A DNA stretch of 64,000 bases from a phage. The stretch lies in the NCBI GenBank assembly GCA_024682255.1, contig GCA_024682255.1_4716.1, one strand, 5' to 3'. Both the position numbers and the translations under genes were made by a program. The notes under the pieces are model-generated. The model was not told the origin of the DNA. It saw only the letters and a list, made by a program, of their open reading frames with translations, and searched no databases. Below, in pieces: positions 1,374-61,769 of the stretch; positions within the stretch are counted from its first letter, which is position 1, and each line of letters opens with the position of its first letter.

Positions 1374-2948
1374 TTACAATTCAAAATCTTCATCGATAAC
1401 ACGCTGGGTAAGCACTTTGTCGCTGAAGAACTCCACCTTGCGCTGATGGTATTTACGGTGCGCTTCAATAGAAGTACATACCAGATACCAGAACGTTGGC
1501 GTCATTCCTTCAAACTTCCCTTTCAGCTGACGCAGTCGTCCCAACACCTGAATGTTGCCGGTTCGTGACCCCATCGCTAACGTCATGAACGTCATCACCA
1601 AGTCAGGAAGGTCGATACCCGTACCTGCCGATTTCACGGTTGTAACGCTGATATCGTTATCCAACAAGACCATGAAATCTTCTTCAGCAGTATAGGGACC
1701 GATCTCTAACTCAGGAATACGTTCACTGAGATAATGCGACAACGACTTACACATATCAACGGTTGCACAATACACCAGCATCTTCATACCTTCCTGATAC
1801 TGGTTCATGAAACCCTTGATGATAACGGTATAGATGAAGTTGAAATACGCGAGTTTGAGTTGCTTGTTCTTCATGATAGACTGTTCGAATATCGTGTGTG
1901 AATAAGCTCCGCCAAACCCTTTGTATCTGACTTTATCTGTACTGCGTAGTCGATATGTTACCGCATTTACCGCAATGTATTTCTTGTATTCGCCTTTTGC
2001 ATAACGGGCTTCTTTCGGATACATCAAATACAGCATCTGTTCGATAAACGGATCATCGGATACCGCTGTTGCCGACAGATAAATGATTTCCGGAATATTG
2101 GCGTAACACTTGACCTTAAACAAGAAATGCAATGCTTCGTGACACTCGTCATGAATCAGCAAACCTATGCCGGTCTTTTCCCAAAACTCAGCGGGATGGA
2201 AGGCATATGGCACAACGCAGTTATTCTTCTCGTAGTCCGCAATATAACGTTGGAACATGTTCAAGGAGAACAATGCAATTTTGAAGTCGAGCTCACCTTG
2301 TTCAACCAAGGTTTGAAACTCCAACATACTGTAACGAGGAATGTCGGGATGCGGTGGATCCTCCTTAGCGTTCCCGCGTATCTCAATAACGTCCCCTGGT
2401 TCCATCCCGAAGAAGTTCAGCAGTGAGCTTCGCCAACCTGGCATGTATCTCGGCGACAGAATGATGCCCGTCCGTACACCACGTCGGAAGGTAATCTCCT
2501 GCGACATGGCCGTTTTTCCTGACCCCGTTTGAGCGGTGTTTAGGCTCATTCTGAAGGGGGTATCCTTACCCCCGTCCATGTACTCCAACCATTCTTGCTG
2601 ATCTTGACGCCATGGAAACTTCCATTTCTTTACGAACTCCACTTCCTTACCTGGTACCGGATCGTGATAAACGATTTCCAACCACTCTTTTCGGATTCCT
2701 CGAGAGAAGATAAAATCCAAAAACGATTTCAACTGTTCACGGAGTAAGTATACCTCGCTATAATCGCTTCTCGCTGCGGCATACGTGTTTATGGTATCGG
2801 TAACCATTCTCCGTGTACGAGGGTCACGCCGTTTCCTCAGATGCAAACAACGGTCTCGAAGGTAATGGCCGATAAGATGGGCAAATCGAAGTCCGTATCC
2901 GCTCAGCCTCATGCCATGCGAGAAGACGTCGATACGAGCTAACTTCAT
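1374..2948 (-). CDS. SF2 (DExH-type) helicase
   Basis: Walker A TGSGKT, Walker B/motif II LLIHDECHE, downstream helicase-C-like SAGTGIDLPDL; 524 aa. Confidence 0.75.
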   Translation of the reverse strand: MKLARIDVFSHGMRLSGYGLRFAHLIGHYLRDRCLHLRKRRDPRTRRMVTDTINTYAAARSDYSEVYLLREQLKSFLDFIFSRGIRKEWLEIVYHDPVPGKEVEFVKKWKFPWRQDQQEWLEYMDGGKDTPFRMSLNTAQTGSGKTAMSQEITFRRGVRTGIILSPRYMPGWRSSLLNFFGMEPGDVIEIRGNAKEDPPHPDIPRYSMLEFQTLVEQGELDFKIALFSLNMFQRYIADYEKNNCVVPYAFHPAEFWEKTGIGLLIHDECHEALHFLFKVKCYANIPEIIYLSATAVSDDPFIEQMLYLMYPKEARYAKGEYKKYIAVNAVTYRLRSTDKVRYKGFGGAYSHTIFEQSIMKNKQLKLAYFNFIYTVIIKGFMNQYQEGMKMLVYCATVDMCKSLSHYLSERIPELEIGPYTAEEDFMVLLDNDISVTTVKSAGTGIDLPDLVMTFMTLAMGSRTGNIQVLGRLRQLKGKFEGMTPTFWYLVCTSIEAHRKYHQRKVEFFSDKVLTQRVIDEDFEL

Positions 2949-4951
2949 AACGTGATTACATCCTCCGGTTTAGGTTCTTTACGCGGTAACAGCATGTAGT
3001 CGATCGGATGATCCGGCTTCATGGTTGGGATATAACTGTTCGGGTTTTGGAACGCATCCAGTTGCTCTTGGTGAGCGAACTTCATACTCAAGGAGCGCAT
3101 GTTCATGTTCTTCTTGAAGGTACTGAAGTATCGTGTTGTTCCCTGTTTCGGCATGCGATAATCTTTCGTGTGTGGCGAACGAATCATGCTGGCGTAGAGA
3201 ATAACATCGAGATGCGAAAGGTTCATTCGTAGACGCTGGGCACACAGACGATGCCAATAGTACAGCACGTTTGCAACTTCTTCCGGCGTTGCTTCGTCTT
3301 CCGAAAGGAATCCGGCACTGAAAGAACCTTTCCCGAATTTGAATTCACGTTCGATTTCTTTTGCGTATTCCATCATGTTTTTGTGGATTAACGGCATCTG
3401 GAATAACGTACGTGAATTGTCCCAATGTTTCAAGTCGAAAATCACAATCCCGTCAGACGTCACTTCCCAGCTATGGCGTTTAAGATAACGGATAAACGCT
3501 TTACTCGGTACAACAGGACGGCCGCAGAAATCGAAATTGACTTTGAGCTTACGATAGCTTTCATCTTTCCTGTCGTAAATCTCCATATCGCAAAGCGTCA
3601 TGTTAAACAGGCGTTGCGGTATCAGCGAACTGATTTCTTCCGCTTCCGCTACGTCGTACAACATGTTCGCAAGACCTAACTTCATCTTAATCAGCACGTG
3701 TTTACCTTTCAGCTCACGTGCGAGTTTGATGTCGTTCATGTTCTGGCTATAGCGAAGGATATGTTGATATTCCGGTGGGATTGGTGCTGTGGATACCGTT
3801 GACGAACCATCGTGGTGTTTGGTAGAAAGAATGTTCTGCGTTACCTGTTGCGAACAGGTGCGCGCTGCGCCATCGCCGACATTATCAGTCAATGCGAAGT
3901 TATGACTTAATTCACCGTAACACGTCGTGCATACCCCAGCAGGATCGGGATGATGGCAATAGTTAACGGAGCGCATGCGTACCGTCGTACCAATCAATTC
4001 TTTCATGTGTGGTTGTATCGCTACCAACGAACCATCATCACGAATAATGAATCGACCATGGAAGCCACGCAGGTCGGTCTCATCACGGATTGGCATCGGG
4101 ATGGTCTCTTTACTACCACAATCACCAGGATGGAGTCGTTGTACAACCGCTGTCGCTATCTGAAGTTCACGACCGAAATATTCAGACTTTTTAATCTGCT
4201 CTTTGTTGAACAGCAACGATTTCGCCGCAGAACGACTTTCTTTCAAGCTGTCAGGAAGAGAGATCAAACCAGCTGCGTATGACCGCATCACTGGGTCACG
4301 GAATATCTCGGAGTTAATATCAGTCAAGAATCCACGCATCCCAATACACTGCAGCACCTGTCCGATCGAAACGTGTTCGGTTCTTACCGCACGTGCGATA
4401 GGGTTTGCATGTAACGTTTTATCGGTGCTCAGTACCTTTGTCAGTTTCTTGTATGCGCTTTCAATGCCTTCGCGGGTGGGTTCCGCTTCGGCGATGATTT
4501 TCTTAACTTCGGGGTGTACGGTAATCTGATAAAAATCGTCTGCGCAAATCGTTGTTACGTATTCCTCCAACGCATACGTAAAGAAGTTATACACATTGTT
4601 AAACATATCGAACAGTGCTTTCCAGAGAACCTCACGATTCTCTTGTGGGTAAGCATACATGCATTGACGATACGCGGCGCTTTGCAACGCAACCGATGAA
4701 CCCGCTGTGAACTTGCGTTTATCAACCAGGTTCTCTTTTGTCAATGGTGTCTCAGGATACATGCGATGCACAGACCAGTGCATGTAACTAAAGAAAATGC
4801 GTCGCGCACGCAACTCATGAACGCCATCGTCCATCTCGATATACACACGGTCATTAGGCTGTGCCCACTCGAACACCTCATCAACCGGCCAATGCATAAG
4901 CTCGCGTGCCCTCACACGACGTTTCGTGGTGGTTGTCTGTGTTGTAATCAT
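2945..4951 (-). CDS. multisubunit RNA polymerase beta-prime-like subunit, C-terminal piece
   Basis: 668 aa; NYCHHPDPAGVCTTCYGEL matches the bacterial beta-prime C-terminal Zn-binding segment (E. coli SCDTDFGVCAHCYGRDL); ATGA overlap with helicase gene. Confidence 0.7.
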   Translation of the reverse strand: MITTQTTTTKRRVRARELMHWPVDEVFEWAQPNDRVYIEMDDGVHELRARRIFFSYMHWSVHRMYPETPLTKENLVDKRKFTAGSSVALQSAAYRQCMYAYPQENREVLWKALFDMFNNVYNFFTYALEEYVTTICADDFYQITVHPEVKKIIAEAEPTREGIESAYKKLTKVLSTDKTLHANPIARAVRTEHVSIGQVLQCIGMRGFLTDINSEIFRDPVMRSYAAGLISLPDSLKESRSAAKSLLFNKEQIKKSEYFGRELQIATAVVQRLHPGDCGSKETIPMPIRDETDLRGFHGRFIIRDDGSLVAIQPHMKELIGTTVRMRSVNYCHHPDPAGVCTTCYGELSHNFALTDNVGDGAARTCSQQVTQNILSTKHHDGSSTVSTAPIPPEYQHILRYSQNMNDIKLARELKGKHVLIKMKLGLANMLYDVAEAEEISSLIPQRLFNMTLCDMEIYDRKDESYRKLKVNFDFCGRPVVPSKAFIRYLKRHSWEVTSDGIVIFDLKHWDNSRTLFQMPLIHKNMMEYAKEIEREFKFGKGSFSAGFLSEDEATPEEVANVLYYWHRLCAQRLRMNLSHLDVILYASMIRSPHTKDYRMPKQGTTRYFSTFKKNMNMRSLSMKFAHQEQLDAFQNPNSYIPTMKPDHPIDYMLLPRKEPKPEDVITL

Positions 4952-5096
4952 TATTACTTTCCGATTTAAATGGTTTTATCATACGGTTTACCAATTCCGT
5001 TGGAGTTTACTATCGTTGTGATAGCATCGGGAATCCCTTCCCTTAGGTTATGTAGGTGTTAATATATCTCCACTGCTGACCTTTATGTCGGCAGCA

Positions 5097-5582
5097 CTAT
5101 CCAGCTTTCTGTTGTAAAGCGTATGGATCCATAGCGTCTGACATATCCGCAAAAACGGTGAGAATAAACCCCTTTATCTGTCTCACTTCGGTCACACGCA
5201 ATCCTTTATCGTTACGATATACGTTTTCCTCACCAACCAACTTTGGTCGGATAACATAAACGCCATCAACAAACGGGAATGTCGAATACGGATAAACACC
5301 AATAGAAATGATGTTTGGATGATCGCCTCGAAGGTCACGTCCGAACTTATCGACTCGGCCATAAACCGTTCCATCCACACCCTCCACTTCAATAAGGTCG
5401 TTACGAATATCCTGAAATAGCTGCTCTAACGTGTCGGCGGGGTACGTATATGCGACGCCTAACGCTGGATCCTCGATCGTTTTGACATTGAATCCGTTAA
5501 GCCAAACAATCCGTTCATCCGCCCATGTTTCTTCATATACCGTTAATCCATCGCCGTATATGTTGGCGTGTGCTATCTCCAT
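5097..5582 (-). CDS. hypothetical protein (161 aa)
   Basis: ORF in minus-strand array. Confidence 0.5.
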   Translation of the reverse strand: MEIAHANIYGDGLTVYEETWADERIVWLNGFNVKTIEDPALGVAYTYPADTLEQLFQDIRNDLIEVEGVDGTVYGRVDKFGRDLRGDHPNIISIGVYPYSTFPFVDGVYVIRPKLVGEENVYRNDKGLRVTEVRQIKGFILTVFADMSDAMDPYALQQKAG

Positions 5583-5739
5583 AATCTCATTTCCTCTTCT
5601 ACGTTAGGATAGATGACATGTTGGATATACGTTGTCTTTGCATATATTGCTTTATTTCCGTCAGAAATAACGGAAAATAAAAACAACGACATAGTTCCCT
5701 CCCACCTCCACATGGGAGAGGGAGGGCTATTCGTGTTTA

Positions 5740-6102
5740 TTACTCGATGCTGTCTTCTTCCGTATCTTCCTCTTCGGAACCATCGAATGCACTCATTGTG
5801 ACGGTGGTATCCCAGTTAGCGGCGTAATCAGCCATCGCTTCACGCAGCGCTTCTTCACCAGCATCACCAGCCAGGTCAAGTACAACTAAACCTTGTGCGA
5901 CGTTTTGAGCAACGGTATCAATAACGGTTGCATCTTCTTCAAAACTACGTACCGGTTCAATGGTACCTACATCAACAGCGTAGTTCGTGGTTGCGGTGAG
6001 CACGGCGACTTGTAGCGCATTGCTATCTTCATCATGCAGTGCTGCTTCAATACCGATTGGACGAGCCAGTTCTTGCAGTGTTAATTTGCGAATTAAGTTC
6101 AT
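5740..6102 (-). CDS. hypothetical acidic protein (120 aa)
   Basis: ORF; acidic C-terminal tail EEEDTEEDSIE. Confidence 0.5.
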   Translation of the reverse strand: MNLIRKLTLQELARPIGIEAALHDEDSNALQVAVLTATTNYAVDVGTIEPVRSFEEDATVIDTVAQNVAQGLVVLDLAGDAGEEALREAMADYAANWDTTVTMSAFDGSEEEDTEEDSIE

Positions 6103-6124
6103 TATGTTTTTCCTCAGGTGAATG

Positions 6125-6553
6125 TTAGCAATCGTTTAAAACTTTTTCGATACGGTGGTTGACAAGTTCATTGAATGACTCTTCAACTTGTTCAATGATT
6201 TCATCAACGTCGATATCTAATTGTTGGGGTTGGATAACATGCTCTTTCATGGTTTCCAGCCAGTATTCGGCTTTAACCATGACGTTAGCGACGTGTTCGA
6301 CCTGGCTGCGTATGTCGACGATCTGGCAGTCAGGATTGTTAATGTCGATGATGTGTCCGTGGTGGTTGATAAAACCTAGCTTATTTGATGCCCTTACCGC
6401 ATCACGAGTCAGTTCTTGCAAGATTAAATTATTGACGTAGTTCACTGCTACGGAACGATTTTCGTTATCACTCATACCAGGGATCCTCTTTAAGTCTTCA
6501 CATTCTAGTGTTAAGCAGTTAAAATAAACCGTTCCTTTAATCAGCATAAACAT
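6125..6553 (-). CDS. hypothetical protein (142 aa)
   Basis: ORF in minus-strand array. Confidence 0.5.
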   Translation of the reverse strand: MFMLIKGTVYFNCLTLECEDLKRIPGMSDNENRSVAVNYVNNLILQELTRDAVRASNKLGFINHHGHIIDINNPDCQIVDIRSQVEHVANVMVKAEYWLETMKEHVIQPQQLDIDVDEIIEQVEESFNELVNHRIEKVLNDC

Positions 6554-6593
6554 CCTCCTCCCACCACATGGGCAGGAGGAGGCGTAATATGCA

Positions 6594-7004
6594 TCAGAAA
6601 GGAGGACGATCTTTAAATTCTAGCAACGTGTCTTCGAAGCAAGCAATAAGTTCAGACTGCAATTCGGTACGGCCTTGTTCACCGAAGAGTTCCAGCAACA
6701 TTAATCCCCGAGCGGTCTTCGTAGCAACCTCTTCGCAGATGCGGAGATCGTGAACCGCATCATCGTTGACATCTTTACGCAACTGCGCTGCAATGGACTT
6801 AAGATTGCCGTCTTCATCGTGTTCGTCACGAAATGCATCATAAGCCGCATCGATGTTCGCGATCCGTGTCAATCCTTCAGAATCCCGCCAGTCTCGATAT
6901 AATCCAAGCAGACGGTTATGATTCTTCGTTTTGACGTTCGGTGCTGGAAGGTTGCGCAACAGATGTGGTGTAATCATTGCTATCACGCTATCCGAATGAT
7001 CCAT
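6594..7004 (-). CDS. hypothetical protein (136 aa)
   Basis: ORF in minus-strand array. Confidence 0.5.
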   Translation of the reverse strand: MDHSDSVIAMITPHLLRNLPAPNVKTKNHNRLLGLYRDWRDSEGLTRIANIDAAYDAFRDEHDEDGNLKSIAAQLRKDVNDDAVHDLRICEEVATKTARGLMLLELFGEQGRTELQSELIACFEDTLLEFKDRPPF

Positions 7005-7015
7005 CGTATACCTCG

Positions 7016-9184
7016 TTAGCTTTCGCAGTCATCTGCGTCGATGATTTGTCCGCCAGCAACATTCAGTTGATGATACAGGATCCTCAACGCACGGTTGCCA
7101 CCAATGGGATACTTCTCGAAGTTGGTCGCAATAGGAATCGCTGACGGTTTATCGGTCGCGTAGATGCTTTCAGTGATGCTATCCACCTGTTTTGGATTGT
7201 TCGCATAATCCATAAAGACGCTTGCGAACCATCCGCCAGCAAAGGCGGTAACTTCGCGATGTTCAGATTCACCACAGTAACGAGTTGGTTGCTCTTTACC
7301 CGGAGAACTGTATTTATCGCTATTACTGAGTTTCGACGGTAATCCATGCGCTTGCAATTTAGGAATACCCACCGCAGACCAATCGTTCGCCGTCTTCTCC
7401 AACATCATGATGTACGTGTCGCCGATCGCAATATCGTTCTTGGTTGTCCGCCACTGCCCAGAACGCCCACGGTACCGTACAGGACCTTTCTTCAACGGGA
7501 ACTCACGAATCAGATTCTCCATACGTTCTGAACCTGCCGCGATACTGTCCGTCGGGATATAAACTTCCGTACCGTGGCGTTGTACGTACCGTAAATGATC
7601 CCATTTATCCTCATCCGTGATACAGTATTTTTCAACAACCTGTTCCACGAACTCAGGACTGACGATATAGTAGTAACGCATCAGTGTGTTCCAAGCGGTC
7701 TCCAGATCGCCTGCATCCATCACCGGTTTCAGTTCACGCATGATCTGATCACCAACGCCGTTGATGTACGGTGCGTTAACACGACTTAAACTCATCCTTT
7801 TGATTACCGTACTATCGTCGAACATGAAGTCCGCAACGTTACCCCATTGGTCGACCGGCATTTCATCGTCTTCCATGATGTCGGTTACGACGAATTTATC
7901 ACCCGCCATACCGGTGAATTTAAACCCGATACCTGGAACAACGTCGTAGGTGTACGTGATGGTCACACGCCAATCATCGAGATTCTCTTTACGGTAATCG
8001 CGGGTTGGTAACACATGACGAAGCTGTCCGTTCGGATTGCGGATATCAATGCCGTGTTCAGCATCAGCCAGGTTCAACCACCACATCACCGTTTGATGAT
8101 GACGTATCGGCGTACCAACGCGTTCACGTTCGTACTTACGAACAGCATCCTGAATTCGGGTGTAAAGCAAACCGATCGCGTTCTCGTATTTCAGGAATTG
8201 ACGATACGGTGGGCGCATCTTCTCTTCCATCATAATCGCACGCTCGCGGGCTTGACGTCCAGAACGACGATGTCGATCGCTGACAACATCGATATCCGTT
8301 ACACGCGCATTCGGTTCAGCGTAAGTGAGATCATCGTAAACATAATCCACACGCTGAAGGTTACACGTCATCATGTCAACAACGCTAAGGATAGGATCGA
8401 TTTCGCGTGTTGCTGCAAGTAACCCATCTTTACGAATACGTTCACCGTTCTCGGGTATTGCTTGGTATACCTCATCATCACCGTAGAGATTGATTGGGTA
8501 TCGTGATTTACCTGACGTGATTGTTCGCTTCTCAATGCCGGTGCTGGTGAAATGCTTCAATACACCACGACGGGCAACACCACCATCCTCGATACATTGA
8601 TAGAAGCTACCGAAACACACCTTGCAATCGCGACCGTAACCCCACTCACGTGTTTCTTGATTGATCGCTGGGCTTTCCATCAAACGAGAATATCGCGGTA
8701 CGATCTGGCCTCGACGAAGGGAATGGAACAAGTTGGTTGGTCGAAAACGGAAACCGTACTGCTGATGCATGATGTGATGCTCGGGCACTTCAAGCAAGCG
8801 TAGCTCGTGACGGTTACCATCCTCTTGGTTTTCATACAGCACGTAATGCATCGTGTTTGTTTTGATGCTGTTTGCTGTATGCCCTGGTTGGAAACGTGGG
8901 ATGATATCTATGATGCGAGATTCGACTGGAAACTCTACTGACCAAGTGTTCTGTCCGTACTGGTATTCAATCCCCGTCGTTAGTCGGGACGGTTTCGCAT
9001 CTTTGATAACCAACGCTTGGCTAAGATGTCCGCCAAACATCGCAGCGCGCTGTGCTGAGTTATAATGCAATAGCCCGTTAAGTCCAGTCCCTACGCCAGT
9101 ATACTCCTGTTTAATGGGAATGATTTTACCTTCAGCGATTGCCTGCTTCACAGATTCATAAAGAGGTTTTTCTTTATAATGCAT
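7016..9184 (-). CDS. multisubunit RNA polymerase beta-like subunit, C-terminal piece
   Basis: LHYNSAQRAAMFGGHLSQAL ~ E. coli beta EHDDANRALMGANMQRQAV; AGDKFVVTDIMEDDEMPVDQWGNVADF...IKRM ~ GDKMAGRHGNKG...EDMPYDENGTPVD...SRM; C-terminal GESEHREV..A ~ GGQRFGEMEVWA. Likely start is internal ATG at 9184 (MHYKEK...); ORF track extends to 9349. Confidence 0.72.
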   Translation of the reverse strand: MHYKEKPLYESVKQAIAEGKIIPIKQEYTGVGTGLNGLLHYNSAQRAAMFGGHLSQALVIKDAKPSRLTTGIEYQYGQNTWSVEFPVESRIIDIIPRFQPGHTANSIKTNTMHYVLYENQEDGNRHELRLLEVPEHHIMHQQYGFRFRPTNLFHSLRRGQIVPRYSRLMESPAINQETREWGYGRDCKVCFGSFYQCIEDGGVARRGVLKHFTSTGIEKRTITSGKSRYPINLYGDDEVYQAIPENGERIRKDGLLAATREIDPILSVVDMMTCNLQRVDYVYDDLTYAEPNARVTDIDVVSDRHRRSGRQARERAIMMEEKMRPPYRQFLKYENAIGLLYTRIQDAVRKYERERVGTPIRHHQTVMWWLNLADAEHGIDIRNPNGQLRHVLPTRDYRKENLDDWRVTITYTYDVVPGIGFKFTGMAGDKFVVTDIMEDDEMPVDQWGNVADFMFDDSTVIKRMSLSRVNAPYINGVGDQIMRELKPVMDAGDLETAWNTLMRYYYIVSPEFVEQVVEKYCITDEDKWDHLRYVQRHGTEVYIPTDSIAAGSERMENLIREFPLKKGPVRYRGRSGQWRTTKNDIAIGDTYIMMLEKTANDWSAVGIPKLQAHGLPSKLSNSDKYSSPGKEQPTRYCGESEHREVTAFAGGWFASVFMDYANNPKQVDSITESIYATDKPSAIPIATNFEKYPIGGNRALRILYHQLNVAGGQIIDADDCES

Positions 9185-9215
9185 AGGACTTCCTATTATC
9201 GAATTGAGGTACGTC

Positions 9216-12558: not shown

Positions 12559-14148
12559 TTATTTTTTTCCTCTTAAATTTACTACGTGTTCATTTAATCG
12601 AACAACTAATTGCACAAGCTGCTGACGGATATCAGCTGGACAAAGCATCAATCCTTTACGATCAGCTGGGACTTTCTCAAGGATTTCCGGGCCTGCTGCT
12701 GAAACATCCCAGTCCCATTCACAAAACGCATCGGCCACCATGTTAATACCGACAACCGGTAAAGTTGTACGTTCATCTTCATACATGGCGTGTGGATACA
12801 ATTTATTGACAGTAATGATCTCCTGTGGTTTTAATTGGTGGATAATCTGATAAACATCGTCGCGTTTAACCTGGATACCTACGGTCAGCGCGGCCAGTTG
12901 AGGAAAACCCCAATGGTCTAACAAGCAAGCTGCGATGGCTAACGCTTTTGCCTGATGCACGGCTTCAATCGGTGCCAGACTTCTCGCCGGAAGATGGCTA
13001 TCAAGCAACCATTGTGCCAGTGCTCGGCATCCACGGTTGATTGGTTTTAACTCAACGCTGTCATCATGCTTAGCGTACGTGTATCCGTCGTAACGTTTTG
13101 CGATACGCGCATACATGTCTTCAACTTTACCGTAAGGTGCCGTTTCGTCGACGTCGTGTAACACACGTTCCATCTGGGTAAGATACGCGATATCAAGAAT
13201 GAGTACACGCGGTGAACGTTTATCTTTCACCATCAGCGCATCAATCACGCCTTGACTGTCTTCATCTTGCGCGTTCCCTCGTGGGGTTTTCTCACGAATC
13301 GGTCCGCTGAAACGTCGTTCCGTACAAAGGTTATTCACATAGCTAAAGATCAGTGTTACCAGATGCGTACAACTTACCAACACCCCATCCTTAACGACAG
13401 GCTGTACAGCTTGGTCCAAATCACGTACGGCGAGACGGCGGACGATAGCTTGTGAACGCAACCAGCCGGGCACTTTCTCCGTCGACATGTAATCCACGGT
13501 CATCGACAGCGTGATCTTTTTATCACCCGTCTGTGCACGGATATAGTCTTCCAGTCGGTCGTAAGCAGCGATATCATGAATGCGTGTTTTATACATCAAC
13601 GACATAGCCACTTCTTCTTTACGGACCGTCCCGTACGTTTTCCCTGCGTCAATCAGAAACTCTGCCCAAATCGGCACCATCAGACGGACGTAGATTGCTA
13701 ACGCCGTTAACTCAACGTAATCATTTCGTAAATAGGTTTTCTCAGGTATGTCATCCTCACCTAATGTTGTTTTCATGTCCGGTGGTAATTTTACCCAACC
13801 TGGGGTATTACACAACGCCAGAATCTCTTCATACACAACCGGTTTGTAAATTTCACCAACAGCGCGACTCAACTCCTCCATTTGTTGCTGTGGAGCAATG
13901 TAGTTATCCATCGCTTCACGTGCTTTAACGAACCCTTCGAAGATGTCGTCAATTCGACGTGGGTTCTTTTGTTCTATCCAGGCGAGATACTTGTTAATCT
14001 CCCGCATCTGATTACTAGCCATATCCCCATCGATCTTGATATAACCCTGACCTGAAAATTCCACAGTACGTCCATCACGGTGTTTGATGAGGTAGTGATC
14101 CAGCTTTTCTTTTCCTTGCGTCGTAATGACGGGCACTATGTGCATAAC
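12559..14148 (-). CDS. hypothetical protein (about 530 aa)
   Basis: Long ORF; probable start at internal ATG (MHIVPV...) preceded by AAGAGG RBS; ORF track extends to 14280. Confidence 0.55.
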   Translation of the reverse strand, partial: VMHIVPVITTQGKEKLDHYLIKHRDGRTVEFSGQGYIKIDGDMASNQMREINKYLAWIEQKNPRRIDDIFEGFVKAREAMDNYIAPQQQMEELSRAVGEIYKPVVYEEILALCNTPGWVKLPPDMKTTLGEDDIPEKTYLRNDYVELTALAIYVRLMVPIWAEFLIDAGKTYGTVRKEEVAMSLMYKTRIHDIAAYDRLEDYIRAQTGDKKITLSMTVDYMSTEKVPGWLRSQAIVRRLAVRDLDQAVQPVVKDGVLVSCTHLVTLIFSYVNNLCTERRFSGPIREKTPRGNAQDEDSQGVIDALMVKDKRSPRVLILDIAYLTQMERVLHDVDETAPYGKVEDMYARIAKRYDGYTYAKHDDSVELKPINRGCRALAQWLLDSHLPARSLAPIEAVHQAKALAIAACLLDHWGFPQLAALTVGIQVKRDDVYQIIHQLKPQEIITVNKLYPHAMYEDERTTLPVVGINMVADAFCEWDWDVSAAGPEILEKVPADRKGLMLCPADIRQQLVQLVVRLNEHVVNLRGKK

Positions 14149-14349
14149 AACCTCTTTTCGCGGTTCCCTGTTAAAACGTCTTCTGTGACGTCTACCACAA
14201 AGGTAATATAAGCGTGAATAATTTTGGATTCCGGCTGAGTTATCGCTCAGCATGCAAGGCATCCCGCCGAAGCGAGACACCTTGCACTAACGGAAAATAT
14301 TCGCGTTACCTTCTGAATCGAAGACTCAGAATGCGATGCTAAAGCATGA

Positions 14350-18344: not shown

Positions 18345-18357
18345 GAGGAACTCCTCT

Positions 18358-18807: not shown

Positions 18808-18925
18808 TCCGTTCTCCTCAAGCTTTTCATTTCATAGGGTGGTGGAAATTCGTAGAAAGTTACAAAAATAAAAAAGAATGGGCAGCCCCTCCCCACCCGA
18901 AGGTAGGGAGAGACCGCAAATATAC

Positions 18926-19390: not shown

Positions 19391-19475
19391 TTTACTATCC
19401 TCGGATTTCGTTAGGATTTAATTTCCAATATAAGGACAATGTGATATGCCTTATACAGTCGATTGATGTTGTACA

Positions 19476-21043: not shown

Positions 21044-21268
21044 TTAGCAATGGTTGTTAGTTGCTTCTATTTCGTCAAGATACGGTTCTACGTCATCGCC
21101 CTCCACGAATTCGTTGAACCAACAGTCAATGGTAGAAATAACCGGTGACTGGTGTTCACATTTCTTAGATACCTTAAAAGGTACGTTATTATCCATCATA
21201 CCGAGTTCGGGTCGAAAACGCCCGAAATGTTTCGCAGTCCAAATGTCTGGGACGATATGGTTGTTCAT
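21044..21268 (-). CDS. RNA polymerase beta-prime N-terminal subunit, exon 3 (MNNHIVP...; 74 codons)
   Basis: MNNHIVPDIW...GMMDNN aligns with the segment immediately after the catalytic DGD in beta-prime (E. coli DGDQMAVHVPL...LMMSTNN; Rpb1 DGDEMNLHVP). Frame is closed by TAG 3 codons upstream of the annotated ATG, so it cannot be contiguous with exon 1. Proposed 3' splice site after G21269; alternative after G21281. Confidence 0.55.
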   Translation of the reverse strand: MNNHIVPDIWTAKHFGRFRPELGMMDNNVPFKVSKKCEHQSPVISTIDCWFNEFVEGDDVEPYLDEIEATNNHC

Positions 21269-21623
21269 CGTGGTGTTCAGCATGAGTCGCTACCTCATAC
21301 CCGCAGCTTTACCTGCAGCTTCCGGTGTTACCGGAATGTCCAGAATACATCTTATCCATATTCCAAATGGAACGTAGGACTTCCGCGCTGGATCTCGCTT
21401 GAGACCACGTATTCGTTGAACGTTCTCCTGAACGGAGCTTCGCTGCTGATCGAACATTGTCACGTACGGTAGGCGTCCCCGAAGGGATTGTCATTGAAGC
21501 CGCGTACATCCGCTACCTTGTTTCTACCTTATCGGTTCCTCTTACGAGGCGTAGCGGCCTTAGCCCTTCCCAGCAATTCACGGAATCCAAGCTCTTCCTT
21601 TCGGAAGGCAGGGCCTATGATTA
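21269..21623 (-). ncRNA. group I intron B (ORF-less, about 355 nt) in beta-prime gene
   Basis: Minus-strand core elements in canonical order: P GAATTGCTGGGAAG (21566-21579), Q GATCAGCAGCGAAGC (21437-21451; P4 TTGCTG/CAGCAG), R GTTCAACGAATACG (21408-21421), S AAGATGTATTCTGG (21340-21353; P7 GAATAC/GTATTC); ends in G. Its 5' guide (P1) pairing was not identified, so boundaries are provisional. Confidence 0.5.
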
Positions 21624-21636
21624 AGCGTCACCGTCG
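21624..21636 (-). CDS. RNA polymerase beta-prime N-terminal subunit, 13-nt mini-exon encoding (F)DGDA
   Basis: Minus-strand cgacggtgacgct lies 8 nt after the HNH stop; first 6 nt CGACGG pair with intron A guide CCGTCG (P10); joined to exon 1 it restores YNADF-DGD; genomic continuation is GCT TAA (stop), so a second splice is required. Confidence 0.5.
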
Positions 21637-23051
21637 CTGTAGTTTAATTTGGTCGAACGTATTCCAATTTCAATCCATGCCAATTACCGCCTTTACTAAT
21701 AGCGGTACTTATCGTAGTCGGATGTACTTTATGTTCTTCAGCAAGGGCGAATCTATCAGGATAGACTTTATGTGTACCATCCTCAAACACCACCTTTACT
21801 GGGAACCTTTGTAATCCACCAGTTTTTGGTCTAGGCTCTTTAGGAATATATTTACACTCGTTCACATCACCAGGATAATTCCTTGTCCACCATGCTTTCC
21901 AACCGTTTCTGGAAAACGTCTTATCTCCATGACATAAGCTATGGCTTAATGTCGCATAACTCACTCCCGCCATTGTTGCCGCCATTACGGTACTTTCCAT
22001 GTGGTACTTGTCTCCATCGGGCGATATTAAAACCAGCCCGCCGTAAATAACATACGACTTACCGACGTCTTCGGATGTGAAACCAACAAATTCCATTCCA
22101 TGGGTAGCCGCATCGTAATACTTCATCAACGGCCATTGTCGTGTTGTACGGAACCATTTTGAAATCTGGGTGTGTGGGATACCGTAACACTTGGCTGCAT
22201 CACGCATGCTGTAATGTTCGGTTATCTCACCAGTTCTCAAATCCTTTATCCATACGGTTTTAGCTTTCCAGTTCAAGCCGGTACGATAGGCATGGTACGT
22301 ATTTTGGGATTGACTTGTCCATTCAAGATTATCCAGGCGGTTGTTATCTTTAACTCCATCAAGATGGTTACCTACTAACATTGATCCCTCAGGAAGCATA
22401 GGTTTTTCACGAAAGGTTGATAGAACAACATGATGAGCTGCTATATCTCTACCTTCATGTCTAACCCTTACATATCCGAATATGTTAGTTTTTCCTACTT
22501 CCTCTCCAGTATAGGCATCTATAATGACACCCTCCTCGGAAGCGGCAAGTCCTGGATAATCTTTACAGTGGTAAAATCCTGGGAATTTTGTCTCTCTAAG
22601 TTTCATCTTCTCTCCGTTATCGGCCAACAGAGAGAAAACGTTCCTCGGAGGCCGACGTTTTCAAATTAAACTATGTTATCGACTATATCTTCATCCTCAT
22701 TGCGAGGAGACTCTCGTTTGGGTTTGTGTTTAACAAAGCCTACTCTACTCAACATCGCGTCTTTCGATAGTCTGTGAGCACACATCTTAACGAATATTCG
22801 TAGATTCCTACAGGCAGGTGAATATTCTTGTTGAGATGCTTCGCTGCGGATTATTCCCGTCCTACCTCTTTTACCATACCCAGGTCATTACGCTGGCCCT
22901 CATCTATGTCACCATGATGAGTTGGTGTGTAGTCCGATTACAGAAACTTCCCGTCAATTAGAGAGTTTTAACTATGCTCCTGTTACCAGGAACCCGACTC
23001 CGACGGCATCAATAAATCAACGTAAGTTATTGATTTAATTGAAGAAATTGG
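21637..23051 (-). mobile_element. group I intron A (about 1.4 kb) carrying an HNH homing endonuclease gene, inserted in the beta-prime NADFDGD codons
   Basis: Minus strand: guide CCGTCG-GAGTCGG (23006-22994) pairs with exon 1 end CCGACTT (P1, U-G at splice site) and exon 2 start CGACGG (P10); P2 hairpin TCCTGGTAACAGGA; P TAATTGACGGGAAG (22947-22960); Q AATCCGCAGC (22843-22852; P4 with bulged A); R GCTCACAGACTAT (22767-22779); S AAGATATAGTC (22681-22691; P7 GACTA/TAGTC); HEG in 3' extension; terminal G at 21637. Confidence 0.8.
21644..22627 (-). CDS. HNH homing endonuclease (intron-encoded)
   Basis: 327-aa ORF; HNH motif HHVVL...VGNHLDGVKDNNRLDNLEW; sits between intron A core and 3' splice site; annotated start is TTG, first ATG 21 nt downstream (MKLRETK...). 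Confidence 0.8.
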   Translation of the reverse strand: MADNGEKMKLRETKFPGFYHCKDYPGLAASEEGVIIDAYTGEEVGKTNIFGYVRVRHEGRDIAAHHVVLSTFREKPMLPEGSMLVGNHLDGVKDNNRLDNLEWTSQSQNTYHAYRTGLNWKAKTVWIKDLRTGEITEHYSMRDAAKCYGIPHTQISKWFRTTRQWPLMKYYDAATHGMEFVGFTSEDVGKSYVIYGGLVLISPDGDKYHMESTVMAATMAGVSYATLSHSLCHGDKTFSRNGWKAWWTRNYPGDVNECKYIPKEPRPKTGGLQRFPVKVVFEDGTHKVYPDRFALAEEHKVHPTTISTAISKGGNWHGLKLEYVRPN

Positions 23052-24307
23052 AAGTCGGCATTGTAGCCTTTCAAGATCATCACGCTTAACCCGATGGTGT
23101 TATCCTGCGGATCGCGTTTAACCTTGGTGATTTCAAGACATTGGTTACTGCTTCGGTCAAGTGATGGGTTTCGAACAAAGCCGCACACAATCCCATCGAA
23201 CGGTGTATCAGCAATAAGCTCATCATGCAGCTCACTCATCATCGGATGATAATTACGGACATGTTCCGCAACGAACGCACGTGCTGCTCTTGGTGAATAA
23301 CCACGATGGAATAACTTGGATTGGATATGTTCTTTATTGGTTAAAGTAAATGGCGCGTATGGGAAATGCAGATGATAATAACGATGGTTCGCTGTTATCG
23401 AACTGATTACGGTACGCGTGGTGAATGGATGTAATGTACCTAATATGTTTTTACGTGTGATACCTTTCTTCTTACCGATGAACTCATCGAAAATAGCTGC
23501 GTGGTATTGCAGCAGCTTCAATTGCACTTTCGCCATCCAGTTTTCTTTCTTTCTGGCGCTCAAAGGTGTTGTTGGATGATAGATGCTATTCAGTGTACCA
23601 ATAGCATCGATCGCACCTTCCATTTTGCTATCCGCATAACGACCGGTTGGCGTATTCTCGATAACGAACATCATGGCTGCAGGAAAGCTGATATACTGAC
23701 TGAAGAACTTATCACGATGGATACGGATGAATTCTCGTAGCGTGTCAACTTTCTCCGTGTTCTTCGGTCCACGTAACGTCGGTCCTTTATACAAGATCTC
23801 CATGATGCGATCGAAGTTCTGTATAAAGCTATTTACGCCGCGACGTATCCCGAATACATCGAATTGCTGCTCCAGATAGTTCTTGAGTTCGATGGGTCGT
23901 TTTACATTTGGACGGTAACTGGCATCAATGAGCCACGTCATCGTTTCAAAGCTTTTGATATTCAACTCGCTTGCCAGCACGAGATGGACCAACGGGTTAA
24001 TGAACGCATCGATTCCTTCAGGAACACGCGCCCACACCGTCGAACGAATCTCTTGTTCTGCTGGGTAGGTTACAACCGTTTTACAGTTCGGACACACCGT
24101 GCCGAGCAGCTCACCACGATTGTAGAAACCGCAACCACATTGTGGTGTGATATCCAACGTATCGCTGGAGTAAACACGGGTGATGAAACTGTTTAATTTC
24201 TTCTTCTCTTCGACGACTTTTGTATCGTAATCATTCAACAAAATCGGCGTAAAAGGAAGTTCTGCGAGCTGTCTATCGAAACTCACGATATCGAGCATGA
24301 TGGCCAT
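23052..24307 (-). CDS. RNA polymerase beta-prime N-terminal subunit, exon 1
   Basis: ATG at 24307 with AGGAGA RBS; Zn finger CGCGFYNRGELLGTVCPNCK (like beta-prime Cys70-88); RNPSLDRSSNQ ~ NRAPTLHRLGIQ; ORF runs ...MILKGYNADF then QFLQLNQ-stop, truncating the universal NADFDGD motif; exon taken to end after the TT of the Phe codon (23052). Confidence 0.75.
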
Positions 24308-58048: not shown

Positions 58049-58049
58049 A

Positions 58050-58760
58050 TCACCCCCTCAGAATCGCTTCTGTTTCGCTGATCGTATCCGCAGGATAAAC
58101 CAAACTACTATCGATTGCGTTATTCACGTAACCACCCATTAAGTTGGTGATGGTGTTTGTACCGCTATCGATAATGTTTCGTAATCCGATGTCGATGGCT
58201 TTTAACGTACTGCGTTCTTCATCCGAAAGCAAACGCCACGCTCGACGACGATCGTTGGGGTCACGTGTGGTGATAGACGCCAGAACAGAATAGATGCTGC
58301 TGTCTGCGTTCAATTTAACGCCAGCCAATTTCGCTGACGTATAGAGCAGCTGATATTTTTCTTTCTCAGTGTACCACCATGGCACCTTACCGAGCGTATA
58401 GATCTCGTTATACATCAGCCATGGGAAAGAGTTTCGCATCACGACATCGGTCGACACCAACACCGTGTCGCCGGGAAGAAACACAAATTCATAAAACGGC
58501 TGACCATCCATGGTAATTTCACGGATGTCAGACGGGTCGATATGGAGCTGGGTCAATGCGTGGCTGACACCATACTGTCCATCAGGAAGAATAATCGGGC
58601 AGCACGCACAAACCCGGTTCTCACTCCCGATGATAGATAAACCCAATCCCTCGTAACGGACGGGTGTCAGAATCGAACACCCGCCACGAGTAACAACAGA
58701 TTTATCTTCTTGTATGTCCCAGTCCGCAAGCACCGCAGCACCGTTGCGGACAAGCGCCAT
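58050..58760 (-). CDS. hypothetical protein (236 aa)
   Basis: ORF in minus-strand array. Confidence 0.5.
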   Translation of the reverse strand: MALVRNGAAVLADWDIQEDKSVVTRGGCSILTPVRYEGLGLSIIGSENRVCACCPIILPDGQYGVSHALTQLHIDPSDIREITMDGQPFYEFVFLPGDTVLVSTDVVMRNSFPWLMYNEIYTLGKVPWWYTEKEKYQLLYTSAKLAGVKLNADSSIYSVLASITTRDPNDRRRAWRLLSDEERSTLKAIDIGLRNIIDSGTNTITNLMGGYVNNAIDSSLVYPADTISETEAILRG

Positions 58761-60618: not shown

Positions 60619-61769
60619 TTATTTAGCGTCGTTAAAGTAAATATCAACAGCTCGTTCCGTTGCGTAGAGGAGACCAAGATTCACAGTCCCAACCACTTCC
60701 GGTGAACCGATGATACGGTTAGCGATACTGGTGCCACTGAAGATAGCATCAAGGGTGTGCCCGTCTTCGGTTTTGTTCACACCATGACCCACGGAAGAGA
60801 CAACGGATTTCGCTTGAGCTGCGAAGGTACCTTTATCACCCATCCCCGCACCAAGGTCGTAACGCATGAAAATACGGATGGCGATCTGGTTCTCGCCTAA
60901 CGGATTACCGTCTATTCTCACGTTACTGTTATTGATACGCCCCGTTGTTGCTTCGTTGAGTTTCAGTTCCTTAACGCGTTTAGCTCGTGCTTTATCCGCT
61001 TCACCGACGAGCGCTGCCATGGTTTCACTCATATCCTCAATCTGAGCGCGGTACAGTACATCGATCTGTACAACTTCACCATGAACGTCAGCACGTGGGT
61101 TATACTGACTCATACGACGTAATGCTTCAACGGCTTCCTGACTCTCATCACTCAGATCGGTTGCAATCGGTTCTTCCAGTGTTGCAAGGATCGTTCGAGG
61201 TTCAACGTGATCGCCGATTTTCACGAGACCGCGAATGTTGAGATGGGCGTCAACGATAAGCGTACGGCTCTTAATCGATGGTGTTACGAGACGATCGGCA
61301 AGATTGTCGAAGATATACGAACTGTCCTCGTGGGTCTCTGGAATATCCAGAATACCGACAAGAGACAGCACGCCTGCGCGCCAAACAACCTGACCTGGGT
61401 TCCACCAGTCGCGTTTAAAATAAAGACGATGGAAAACCACCACATCCTGATCCTTAACGCGATCCCCGACTTTATAATCGGTAATGAGATCGTGAGGATA
61501 ATACTTACCTGGTCCTTTCCCGATTATCGTACCGAGCTGGAAAACCTCTTCCCCTAACTCTGGATCGTCGTACTGTATCGTCAGCGCAGTTTTGGTGACC
61601 TTCTTGACAACACCATCGCCTTGGGCGGCAGCTGCGAAGAGTTTACCAACACGATGCGCGATAACAGTCTCACCGCCGGTGCGCCACGGTTGTACATCGT
61701 AACCTTCAGCAGCAATCATGCGGTTGTGCTGTATACCTATAAATACCAATCTCTTGGGCGAATTTAGTT
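60619..61769 (-). CDS. RNA polymerase beta-like subunit (second beta gene), exon 2 / middle segment
   Basis: VGILDIPETHEDSSYIFDNL ~ E. coli [33 protein letters not shown] ~ SGTVIDVQVFTRD; IAIRIFMRYDLGAGMGDKGTF...SVVS ~ [29 protein letters not shown]. No ATG at ORF start (annotated start is TTG), frame open back to 61770; 5' boundary approximate. Confidence 0.6.

What the first reader, a model, noticed from the sequence alone, without database searches (positions are those of the whole stretch)
2945..9184. Split RNA polymerase subunit genes from two distinct polymerase sets
The window holds beta-prime N (with introns), beta-prime C (668 aa), a beta C-terminal piece (777 aa) and a second beta gene (exons at 62262-64000 and 60619-61769). 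Both the 777-aa piece and exon 2 of the second beta gene cover the GDK-to-EDxxxDxxG region, so they cannot belong to the same polymerase. This fits the two multisubunit RNAPs (virion and non-virion) of phiKZ-like phages.
Basis: partly seen in the sequence, partly recalled or inferred. Interest (0 to 1): 0.5.

Follow-up and report, generated by a model that had tools for sequence, protein, structure and literature searches.

The report
Two phage RNA polymerase gene sets
The window comes from a close relative of the E. coli jumbo phage Goslar and carries genes for both of that phage family's own RNA polymerases (one packed in the virion, one made after infection), which is expected biology; the only fresh detail is an unusual crowding of self-splicing introns in these genes.

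Summary
Confirmed, and ordinary for this phage family. The window is about 96% identical in DNA to Escherichia phage vB_EcoM_Goslar, a nucleus-forming phiKZ-like jumbo phage.

Non-virion polymerase (nvRNAP) genes in the window:
- 2945-4951(-) is the beta' C-terminal half (phiKZ gp74, E 1e-86).
- 7016-9184(-) is the beta C-terminal part (phiKZ gp71-73, E 1e-85). The 777-aa ORF is an over-extension; the protein is probably 722 aa.
- 12559-14280(-) is the gp68-like fifth subunit.
- 21044-24307(-) is the beta' N-terminal part, interrupted by two group I introns.

Virion polymerase (vRNAP) genes in the window:
- 60619-64000(-) is the ortholog of phiKZ gp178, the beta N-terminal subunit (37% identity over 949 aa).
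- 58050-58760(-) is a gp176 homolog.

Family profiles of the two beta pieces align over about 374 columns (hhalign E 1.5e-10).

Beyond the finding:
- The vRNAP gene carries an ORF-less 506-nt intron that Goslar lacks, at the PhiPA3 gp210 homing site.
- The beta' N gene has a 13-nt micro-exon that supplies the DGD of the catalytic NADFDGD motif.
- Two related metagenomic phages have different intron sets there, yet their modelled spliced products are the identical 497-aa protein.

The parts
2945..4951 (-). nvRNAP beta' C-terminal subunit (668 aa). Ortholog of phiKZ gp74 and Goslar gp165. By homology it carries the bridge helix and trigger loop.
   Evidence: PDB 7ogp_D E 1.3e-86; AR9 7s00_D E 1e-13; bacterial beta' about 733-975. 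phrog_3015 E 5e-170. phiKZ gp74 blastp E 1e-95.
7016..9184 (-). nvRNAP beta C-terminal subunit, probably 722 aa. The ORF extends to 9349, giving 777 aa. Ortholog of phiKZ gp71-73 and Goslar gp171. Unlike phiKZ, it is uninterrupted.
   Evidence: PDB 7ogp_C E 1e-85. Profile A2 against E. coli beta 978-1241, E 2e-27. It matches phiKZ gp71 and gp73 colinearly. Start site.
12559..14280 (-). nvRNAP fifth subunit (sigma-like, for promoter recognition), homolog of phiKZ gp68 and Goslar gp175. The ORF from GTG is 573 aa. Goslar annotates 528 aa, which would put the start near 14145.
   Evidence: phmmer against phiKZ gp68 E 4e-32, blastp E 7e-33 over 534 columns. Synteny gp68-69-70-71/73-74-75 is kept. 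Goslar annotation.
23052..24307 (-). nvRNAP beta' N-terminal subunit, exon 1. It ends ...GYNAD + TT of the Phe codon.
   Evidence: PDB 7ogp_A (phiKZ gp55/56.1) E 6.6e-63. phrog_2987 positions 1-420 of 478. P1 pairing: exon CCGACUU with IGS GAGUCGG, with a U.G pair at the splice site (sequence).
21637..23051 (-). Group I intron 1 of the beta' N gene (1415 nt). It carries an HNH homing-endonuclease ORF at 21644-22627.
   Evidence: Rfam RF00028 54.8 bits for 22660-23041. HNH: phrog_59 E 7e-31. P10 pairing: CCGUCG with exon 2 CGACGG. The last base is G. A 12-bp helix brackets the ORF and is kept in Goslar with an entirely different sequence.
21624..21636 (-). 13-nt micro-exon C GAC GGT GAC GCT. 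It completes the Phe codon and encodes DGDA of the catalytic NADFDGD motif.
   Evidence: It is the only DGD in any frame between exon 1 and the downstream ORF. Spliced models of the window, L011 and L012 give the identical 497-aa protein. Alignment to intronless homologs is gap-free.
21269..21623 (-). Group I intron 2 of the beta' N gene (355 nt, no ORF). The 3' boundary could instead be 21281 (a 12-nt ambiguity); 21269 is preferred.
   Evidence: Weak Rfam hits: 21.3 bits E 0.014 and 16.7 bits E 0.054, with the conserved P3-P7 core. 99.7% identical in Goslar. Homologous introns occur at other sites in L011 and L012, at 26-30 bits. P1 hairpin: GCU|UA...UAGGC.
21044..21268 (-). nvRNAP beta' N exon 3 (MNNHIVPD... 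to the stop). Goslar annotates it as hypothetical protein gp185.
   Evidence: The spliced 497-aa product aligns end to end with Xoo-sp14, D6 and spliced phiKZ gp55.
62265..64000 (-). vRNAP beta N-terminal subunit, exon 1 (partial). The gene continues beyond the window end; about 491 N-terminal residues are missing. Ortholog of phiKZ gp178 and Goslar gp207.
   Evidence: Goslar gp207 98.5% aa identity. phiKZ gp178 37% identity over 949 aa. Profile A1 hits only bacterial beta chains in the PDB, best E 1.3e-17. phrog_3148.
61759..62264 (-). ORF-less group I intron (506 nt), inserted right after the codons DRDD. Absent from Goslar.
   Evidence: Rfam RF00028 56.3 bits. It is an exact 506-nt insertion relative to Goslar's continuous ORF. 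It sits at the same site as the PhiPA3 gp210 intron (PMC11620839). Identity of the flanking exons to Goslar drops to 57-63% within 30 nt of the site.
60619..61758 (-). vRNAP beta N-terminal subunit, exon 2 (PKRLVF... to the stop). It contains THEDSS and GDK...QAK...SIANR, the counterparts of beta's ED, GDK/HGNKG and PSRM motifs.
   Evidence: Profile alignment to Thermus beta 535-708 and 822-880. hhalign to the nvRNAP beta C family, E 1.5e-10.
58050..58760 (-). Homolog of phiKZ gp176, SPN3US gp244 and Goslar gp210. The literature reports it as the fifth vRNAP subunit (a beta' C-terminal candidate).
   Evidence: blastp against phiKZ gp176 E 4e-33, in conserved synteny 178-177.1-177-176-175. Literature: PMC5105663, PMC7618050, Goslar virion mass spectrometry. 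My own tests of RNAP homology were inconclusive.

Best explanation
The window is a stretch of a Goslar-like chimallivirus genome (a phiKZ-like, nucleus-forming jumbo phage of E. coli). It encodes parts of the two phage-made multisubunit RNA polymerases.

The non-virion enzyme (nvRNAP) is represented by beta' N, beta' C, beta C and the gp68-like specificity subunit. Only beta N lies outside the window.

The virion enzyme (vRNAP) is represented by the large gp178-like beta N subunit and the gp176-like small subunit.

By homology with phiKZ, SPN3US and Goslar:
- The vRNAP is assembled late, packed into the capsid, injected with the DNA, and transcribes early genes.
- Those early genes include the nvRNAP genes. 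The nvRNAP then transcribes middle and late genes inside the phage nucleus.
- Neither enzyme uses alpha or omega subunits.

The two beta-like genes are ancient paralogs, split at different positions. Three self-splicing group I introns must be removed from the mRNAs to restore the catalytic motifs: two in the nvRNAP beta' N gene and one in the vRNAP beta N gene.

What is shown here: the homology, the paralogy, the synteny, the conservation of catalytic motifs, and the intron positions. What is inferred from relatives: packaging, timing, localisation and actual splicing.
For: Identity of the genome:
- The three stretches compared (about 26 kb of the window) are 95.8-97.2% identical in DNA to Goslar.

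nvRNAP subunits:
- PDB chains of the phiKZ nvRNAP are hit at E 1e-86 (gp74), 1e-85 (gp71-73) and 7e-63 (gp55).
- The gp68 homolog is found at E 4e-32, with the full synteny gp68-69-70-71/73-74-75.

vRNAP subunits:
- The gp178 ortholog shares 37% identity over 949 aa. gp177, gp176 and gp175 are syntenic.
- The family profile hits only bacterial beta chains, best E 1.3e-17.

Paralogy:
- hhalign of the two beta families gives probability 96.9%, E 1.5e-10, over 374 columns.

Catalytic motifs are present in both sets:
- HEDSS / IEDG.
- GDK..QAK / GFK..GDK.
- NADFDGD after splicing.

Literature:
- phiKZ subunit lists (PMC8287921; PMC7618050).
- The split sites of beta differ between vRNAP and nvRNAP (PMC7598289).
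- Goslar virion mass spectrometry finds gp207 and gp210.
- In SPN3US, incorporation of the other vRNAP subunits, including gp244, into the head depends on the beta N subunit.
Against: - Nothing in the window tests packaging, timing or activity directly.
- nvRNAP beta N (gp123-like) and three vRNAP subunits lie outside the window, so neither set is complete here.
- Splicing is inferred from sequence only. For phiKZ, one long-read transcriptome study did not see the predicted splicing (PMC10914365), although the purified phiKZ enzyme contains the fused gp55/56.1 and gp71-73 chains.
Confidence: 0.93

Rival explanations
1. The 722/777-aa beta piece and the gene at the window end are complementary fragments of a single split beta subunit, so there is only one polymerase.
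For: Both are fragments of beta. Split RNAP genes scattered over the genome are normal in these phages.
Against: They cover the same part of beta: about 374 aligned columns, E 1.5e-10. Both map onto the same bacterial beta residues, Thermus 535-880 and E. coli 978-1241. Each has its own ED and double-lysine motifs. Their orthologs belong to different purified or packaged enzymes.
Confidence: 0.01
2. One of the two sets is a decaying duplicate. The intron-riddled genes are pseudogenes and only one polymerase is functional.
For: Naive ORF calling breaks the beta' N gene within its catalytic NADFDGD motif and the vRNAP beta gene at its conserved DD|PKR site. Goslar's annotation leaves beta' N truncated.
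Against: All interruptions are group I introns whose removal restores the frame exactly. Three phages with different intron sets give an identical 497-aa modelled product. Substitutions around the vRNAP intron are mostly silent: 31 nt changes but only 5 aa changes. The catalytic residues are intact. Goslar gp207 protein is found in virions.
Confidence: 0.03
3. The ORFs are not RNAP subunits at all, and the motif matches are due to chance.
For: Pfam alone gives nothing above threshold for these divergent proteins. The only hit is RNA_pol_Rpb2_6 at 16.3 bits, below its cut-off. Single-sequence PDB searches with the vRNAP exons found nothing.
Against: Hits to solved phage RNAP chains at E 1e-63 to 1e-86. 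Profile hits to bacterial beta at E 1e-17 and 2e-27. Most homologs of the beta C piece carry PF00562.
Confidence: 0.01

Closest known systems
Escherichia phage vB_EcoM_Goslar (NC_048170): nvRNAP genes gp165, gp171, gp175, gp247(+gp185); vRNAP genes gp207, gp210
   Same: Same genes in the same order. DNA identity is 95.8-97.2%. The micro-exon is the same and intron 2 is 99.7% identical.
   Different: - The window has an extra 506-nt intron in the gp207 ortholog.
- The HNH gene inside beta' N intron 1 is replaced by a 29%-identical homolog with no DNA similarity.
- Goslar's annotation does not join the beta' N exons.
phiKZ non-virion RNAP (gp55, gp68, gp71-73, gp74, gp123; PDB 7OGP/7OGR)
   Same: Four of the five subunits have orthologs here, in the same local gene order. 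beta' is split after the DPBB domain. gp68-type fifth subunit is present.
   Different: - Amino-acid identity is only 24-33%.
- phiKZ has one intron in gp55 at N|ADFDGD and one in gp71-73; the window has two in beta' N at other positions and none in beta C.
- Four or five extra small ORFs lie between beta C and beta' C.
phiKZ / SPN3US virion RNAP (phiKZ gp178, gp149, gp180, gp80, gp176; SPN3US gp241, gp218, gp240, gp42, gp244)
   Same: The gp178 and gp176 orthologs are present with the same neighbours (gp177, gp175 protease). The beta N subunit ends just after the PSRM-type motif.
   Different: Only two of the five subunits lie in the window. The beta N gene carries an intron here.
PhiPA3 gp210 intron in the vRNAP beta gene (Birkholz et al. 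2024, Science; PMC11620839)
   Same: A group I intron inserted immediately after the two conserved Asp codons of the gp178-type gene (DD|PKR).
   Different: The window's intron has no endonuclease ORF. It has no close DNA relative in the phage collection, only core-motif matches of 52-87 nt.
Phage genes with several group I introns, and 'similar introns with divergent ORFs' (Staphylococcus phage Twort and SPO1-like HMU phages, as cited in PMC12908238 and PMC11620839)
   Same: More than one self-splicing intron in an essential gene, at conserved catalytic codons. The intron core is conserved while its endonuclease ORF is swapped.
   Different: Here the introns are only 13-18 nt apart, inside a single 7-residue catalytic motif. 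The number and position of the introns vary among phages that encode the identical protein. I found no description of this in the papers searched.

Membership tests
phiKZ-type non-virion RNAP (nvRNAP) | beta' split into N and C polypeptides after the DPBB domain, each homologous to gp55 and gp74 | tested here: met
   7ogp_A E 6.6e-63; 7ogp_D E 1.3e-86. The C piece aligns to the cyanobacterial beta' C-half.
phiKZ-type non-virion RNAP (nvRNAP) | beta C polypeptide homologous to gp71-73, carrying the ED motif and the two DNA-contacting lysines | tested here: met
   7ogp_C E 1e-85. Profile against E. coli beta, E 2e-27. K477 is invariant, D255 is invariant, and K485 and E254 are nearly invariant in the family alignment.
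phiKZ-type non-virion RNAP (nvRNAP) | gp68-type fifth subunit encoded upstream of beta C | tested here: met
   phmmer E 4e-32 against phiKZ gp68; synteny kept.
phiKZ-type non-virion RNAP (nvRNAP) | Intact catalytic NADFDGD in beta' N | tested here: met
   Present only after removal of two introns. The modelled product is identical in three phages. Splicing itself was not observed.
phiKZ-type non-virion RNAP (nvRNAP) | beta N polypeptide (gp123 homolog) | tested here: not met
   The ORFs of the window that were scanned (all of at least 345 aa and some smaller ones) gave no such match. The gene is unlinked in relatives too, for example RAY gp002, so it presumably lies outside the window.
phiKZ-type non-virion RNAP (nvRNAP) | Not packaged; expressed early; active in the phage nucleus | not testable with these tools
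   Known only from phiKZ, RAY and Goslar studies.
phiKZ-type virion RNAP (vRNAP) | Large (about 1400-1450 aa) beta N subunit homologous to gp178, ending after the PSRM-type motif | tested here: met
   37% identity to gp178 over 949 aa. The profile aligns to Thermus beta 394-880 and the protein stops about 30 residues later. The N-terminal part lies off the window.
phiKZ-type virion RNAP (vRNAP) | beta split site different from that of the nvRNAP, so the two beta sets overlap | tested here: met
   hhalign E 1.5e-10, 374 columns. Agrees with PMC7598289.
phiKZ-type virion RNAP (vRNAP) | gp176/gp244-type small subunit is a beta' C-terminal homolog | tested here: inconclusive
phiKZ-type virion RNAP (vRNAP) | Physical presence in virions | not testable with these tools
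   Reported for Goslar gp207 and gp210, which are 98.5% and nearly 100% identical to the window proteins, by LC-MS/MS.
Group I self-splicing intron (Rfam RF00028) | Covariance-model score above the gathering threshold | tested here: met
   vRNAP intron 56.3 bits; beta' N intron 1 54.8 bits.
Group I self-splicing intron (Rfam RF00028) | The same criterion applied to beta' N intron 2 | tested here: not met
   Only 21.3 and 16.7 bits. Support is indirect: a conserved P3-P7 core, U at position -1 and G as the last base, a P1 hairpin, homologs scoring 26-30 bits in L011 and L012, and the need to restore the frame.
Group I self-splicing intron (Rfam RF00028) | U.G pair at the 5' splice site within P1, and a terminal G | tested here: inconclusive
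   - Clear for beta' N intron 1 (CCGACUU / GAGUCGG, plus P10 CCGUCG / CGACGG).
- A short 5-bp P1 for intron 2.
- No convincing P1 with a U.G pair for the vRNAP intron (U pairs with A in the best local hairpin).
- L011 intron B has C at position -1.

The most novel reading that the evidence does not exclude
The roughly 30 nt that encode GYNADFDGDAM, the catalytic Mg-binding loop of the nvRNAP beta' N gene, are a hot-spot for small group I introns in Goslar-like phages.

- At least four insertion sites are used among four near-identical genomes, and a fifth is used in phiKZ.
- The introns leave micro-exons of 13-18 nt. In the window, the DGD triad sits alone on a 13-nt exon between two introns.
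- The intron-borne HNH gene is exchanged between strains.
- Together with the strain-specific, ORF-less intron at the PhiPA3-type homing site of the vRNAP gene, this would mean that closely related coliphage chimalliviruses differ mainly by the intron 'armament' of their polymerase genes. That pattern is consistent with ongoing intron-mediated interference competition.
- It would also mean that correct expression of the essential polymerase depends on ordered splicing across a micro-exon too short to form ordinary P1 and P10 helices with both neighbours at the same time.
Probability: 0.7. Interest if true: 0.5.

Novelty: already known. Interest (0 to 1): 0.25.

Why it matters
The main finding only re-identifies a hallmark of chimalliviruses: two split, alpha-less multisubunit RNAPs. 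The same genes are already described in Goslar, so it adds no new biology.

Its practical value is in annotation:
- The nvRNAP beta' N gene of Goslar-type phages should be annotated as a three-exon gene. gp247 and gp185 are one protein of 497 aa.
- The beta C gene starts at the 722-aa ATG.

The side observations could matter more.
- Near-identical phages differ in the number, position and endonuclease content of introns within a single catalytic motif. This offers a natural system for studying intron homing, co-conversion and interference competition in nucleus-forming phages.
- It also offers a system for asking how two ribozymes share a 13-nt exon.

Tried and rejected
- Pfam on the single proteins gave nothing above threshold.
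- Single-sequence PDB searches with the two vRNAP exons found nothing. Family profiles were needed.
- hhalign of the vRNAP profile against the single 777-aa sequence was not significant (E 0.051). It became significant only profile against profile.
- First exon model for beta' N: exon 3 starting at CTG AAC (21280), giving 501 aa with ...DGDALNTTMNNH. I replaced it with a start at ATG AAC (21268), giving 497 aa, for three reasons.
  - The alignment to homologs is gap-free and scores higher.
  - The equivalent 12 nt are clearly intronic in the related introns of L011 and L012.
  - Only this model makes the three phages' proteins identical.
- Rfam's proposed P1 for intron 2 (21706-21685) is rejected. 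It lies in the endonuclease region that Goslar does not share.
- My first coordinates for the micro-exon were 2 nt off. They were corrected.
- I looked for a P1 with a U.G pair for the vRNAP intron by eye and in the Rfam alignment. None was convincing.
- I searched for more copies of the small intron family in the window with nhmmer and blastn. None were found.
- The ORFs scanned against PHROGs (all of at least 345 aa and some smaller ones) gave no nvRNAP beta N gene in the window.
- The small ORFs at 5097-7004 have no Pfam or PHROG match.

Full report
**What the window is.** Three stretches of the window (2945-9400, 17000-29000 and 56000-64000) match only Escherichia phage vB_EcoM_Goslar in the phage collection, at 95.8-97.2% DNA identity. 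Window position 2945 corresponds to Goslar position 149,525. Goslar is a nucleus-forming, phiKZ-like jumbo phage (Chimalliviridae). The window also holds other hallmarks of that family:
- the nuclear-shell protein chimallin (24400-26295);
- the tubulin PhuZ (34254-35234);
- the split DNA polymerase, the terminase, the tail sheath and the head protease.

**The two ORFs inside the finding's coordinates.**
- ORF 2945-4951(-), 668 aa, hits chain D of the solved phiKZ non-virion polymerase (PHIKZ074) at E 1.3e-86. It also hits the AR9 nvRNAP and, more weakly, bacterial beta' at residues about 733-975 and the cyanobacterial C-terminal beta' half. It is the beta' C-terminal subunit.
- ORF 7016-9349(-), 777 aa, hits chain C (gp71-73) at E 1e-85.
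  - A profile of 21 family members hits E. coli beta 978-1241 at E 2e-27. It is the beta C-terminal subunit.
  - The first 55 codons are an ORF over-extension. An AGGAAG ribosome-binding site precedes ATG 9184. The nearest homologs are 722-730 aa. The extension overlaps a conserved + strand gene at 9204-9569.
- Four or five small ORFs lie between the two genes (5097-7004). They have no detectable relatives. In phiKZ, gp73 and gp74 are adjacent.

**The rest of the non-virion set.**
- Comparison with phiKZ proteins shows the whole block gp68-gp69-gp70-gp71/73-gp74-gp75 is colinear with window 14280 down to 1374. ORF 12559-14280 is therefore the homolog of gp68 (E 4e-32), the sigma-like fifth subunit of the phiKZ nvRNAP (PMC8287921).
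- ORF 23027-24307(-) lies next to chimallin, just as gp55 lies next to gp54 in phiKZ. It hits gp55 (7ogp_A) at E 6.6e-63. It is beta' N.
- No gp123-like beta N gene was found among the window's ORFs that were scanned. That gene is unlinked in relatives as well.

**The 'second beta gene'.**
- The gene running off the window end corresponds to Goslar gp207, 1448 aa.
- In the window it is interrupted by 506 nt that Goslar lacks. Rfam calls this insert a group I intron at 56.3 bits, above the gathering score.
- Joining 62265|61758 restores the frame. The spliced fragment is 98.5% identical to gp207 with no gaps.
- It shares 37% identity with phiKZ gp178 over 949 residues. The neighbours gp177, gp176 and gp175 are syntenic.
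- Single-sequence searches of the PDB found nothing. A 14-member profile hits only bacterial beta chains, best E 1.3e-17. Three colinear stretches match Thermus beta 394-463, 535-708 and 822-880. These hold the HDDANR, ED and GDK...PSRM regions.
- The protein ends about 30 residues after the last of these. It is therefore a beta N-terminal subunit that extends much further toward the C-terminus than the nvRNAP beta N does.

**Are there two sets?**
- Profile-profile comparison of the gp178-like and gp71-73-like families gives probability 96.9% and E 1.5e-10 over 374 columns. It pairs residues 561-955 of the window's spliced fragment with residues 81-547 of the 777-aa ORF.
- Both proteins therefore cover the same third of beta, and each has its own copy of the active-site elements:
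  - HEDSS against IEDG;
  - GDK...QAK against GFK...GDK.
One detail differs: the 'GDK' in the nvRNAP piece aligns with the second lysine, not with the canonical GDK.
- The literature agrees.
  - The beta split sites of vRNAP and nvRNAP differ (PMC7598289).
  - phiKZ vRNAP is gp178/149/180/80/176 and phiKZ nvRNAP is gp55/68/71-73/74/123 (PMC7618050).

**A second vRNAP gene in the window.**
- ORF 58050-58760 is the gp176 / Goslar gp210 homolog (E 4e-33).
- SPN3US genetics identified this family as the missing beta' C-terminal subunit candidate (PMC5105663).
- I could not confirm RNAP homology independently.
  - The family is large: 597 cluster representatives.
  - Its profile finds nothing in the PDB.
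  - hhalign against the nvRNAP beta' C gives E 0.16.
- I therefore file it as a vRNAP subunit on literature evidence only.

**How it most likely works.** This paragraph is inferred from relatives, not shown here.
- The vRNAP is packaged and injected, and it transcribes early genes, including those of the nvRNAP.
- The nvRNAP, with its gp68-like specificity subunit, transcribes middle and late genes in the phage nucleus.
- Both enzymes lack alpha and omega subunits.

**The vRNAP intron.**
- It sits immediately after the codons DRDD. This is the same position (after the two conserved Asp, phiKZ D1071-D1072) as the PhiPA3 intron that carries the gp210 endonuclease used in interference competition (PMC11620839).
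- Here the intron has no ORF and no close DNA relative in the phage collection.
- Identity to Goslar falls to 57-63% within 30 nt of the site and to 70-77% up to 120 nt upstream, against about 95% elsewhere. There are 31 nt changes but only 5 aa changes within 60 nt either side. This looks like a co-conversion tract or a recoded homing site.

**The beta' N gene has three exons.**
- Exon 1 ends ...GCC GAC TT (23052). Its last seven bases pair with GAGUCGG in the intron, with a U.G pair at the splice site.
- The adjacent CCGUCG pairs with CGACGG, the first bases of a 13-nt exon (21636-21624, C GAC GGT GAC GCT). That exon completes the Phe codon and supplies DGDA.
- Intron 1 (1415 nt, Rfam 54.8 bits) carries an HNH ORF.
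  - In Goslar that ORF is replaced by a 29%-identical homolog with no DNA similarity.
  - The 12-bp helix bracketing the ORF is preserved with a wholly different sequence.
- A second intron of 355 nt follows the micro-exon. Rfam scores it only 17-21 bits.

**Comparative support for the three-exon model.**
- Two IMG/VR contigs of Goslar-like phages carry other intron arrangements.
  - L011 has introns at AAC GCT|GAC and GCC|ATG, with an 18-nt mini-exon.
  - L012 has three introns, at GGG T|AT, TT|C and GCT|ATG, with two 13-nt mini-exons.
- All the spliced models give exactly the same 497-aa protein as the window.
- That protein aligns without gaps to intronless homologs: NADFDGDAMNNHIVPD against NADFDGDQLNLTLMPD.
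- phiKZ uses yet another site, N|ADFDGD.
- Splicing itself has not been observed. I found no description of this arrangement in the papers searched.

**Verdict.**
- The feature is already known biology for Goslar and its family, so the finding itself ranks low.
- The strain-variable intron crowding in the catalytic motif is the only part I would follow up.

Noticed in passing
window 21044-24307 (-); also L011 3501-5701 and L012 3501-6090: The nvRNAP beta' N gene has three exons. A 13-nt micro-exon (21624-21636) encodes the DGD of NADFDGD and lies between two group I introns. Related metagenomic phages have two or three introns at other positions within the same roughly 30 nt, yet their modelled spliced products are the identical 497-aa protein. 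Goslar's annotation (gp247 truncated, gp185 hypothetical) misses this.
   Followed up: yes
window 21639-22675 (-): The HNH endonuclease region of intron 1 has no DNA similarity to the one at the same place in Goslar. The proteins are 29% identical, while the flanks are 97% identical. L012 has the same intron core with no endonuclease gene at all. The endonuclease gene therefore appears to have been swapped or lost independently of the ribozyme.
   Followed up: partly
window 61759-62264 (-): An ORF-less 506-nt group I intron sits in the vRNAP beta N gene at the DD|PKR site. Goslar lacks it. PhiPA3's endonuclease-bearing intron uses the same site. The flanking exon sequence is heavily, and mostly silently, recoded relative to Goslar (57-63% identity within 30 nt). 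No convincing P1 helix with a U.G pair was found.
   Followed up: partly
window 5097-7004 (-): Four or five small ORFs (161, about 31, 120, 142 and 136 aa) lie between the nvRNAP beta C and beta' C genes, which are adjacent in phiKZ. They have no Pfam or PHROG match. A strong terminator-like hairpin (12-bp stem) lies at 6554-6582.
   Followed up: partly
window 9185-9349 (-) and 9204-9569 (+): The 5' end of the 777-aa ORF overlaps a conserved opposite-strand gene (phrog_3455, Goslar gp172). The beta C protein almost certainly starts at ATG 9184 (722 aa).
   Followed up: yes
L002 12214-12642 (Goslar 211817-212245), just beyond the window end: Goslar has an annotated group I intron between gp206 (phiKZ ORF179-like) and gp207. 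The window's vRNAP intron shares a 52-nt core match with it. Whether the window's phage has this upstream intron too cannot be seen, because the window ends inside the gene.
   Followed up: no
window 58050-58760 (-): The gp176-like 'fifth vRNAP subunit' belongs to a large, uniform family of about 240-aa proteins (597 cluster representatives). Its AlphaFold model is confident (pLDDT 88): a beta-rich N-terminal domain followed by a helical C-terminal part. It has no significant match to any solved structure, so its proposed identity as the beta' C-terminus remains untested.
   Followed up: partly
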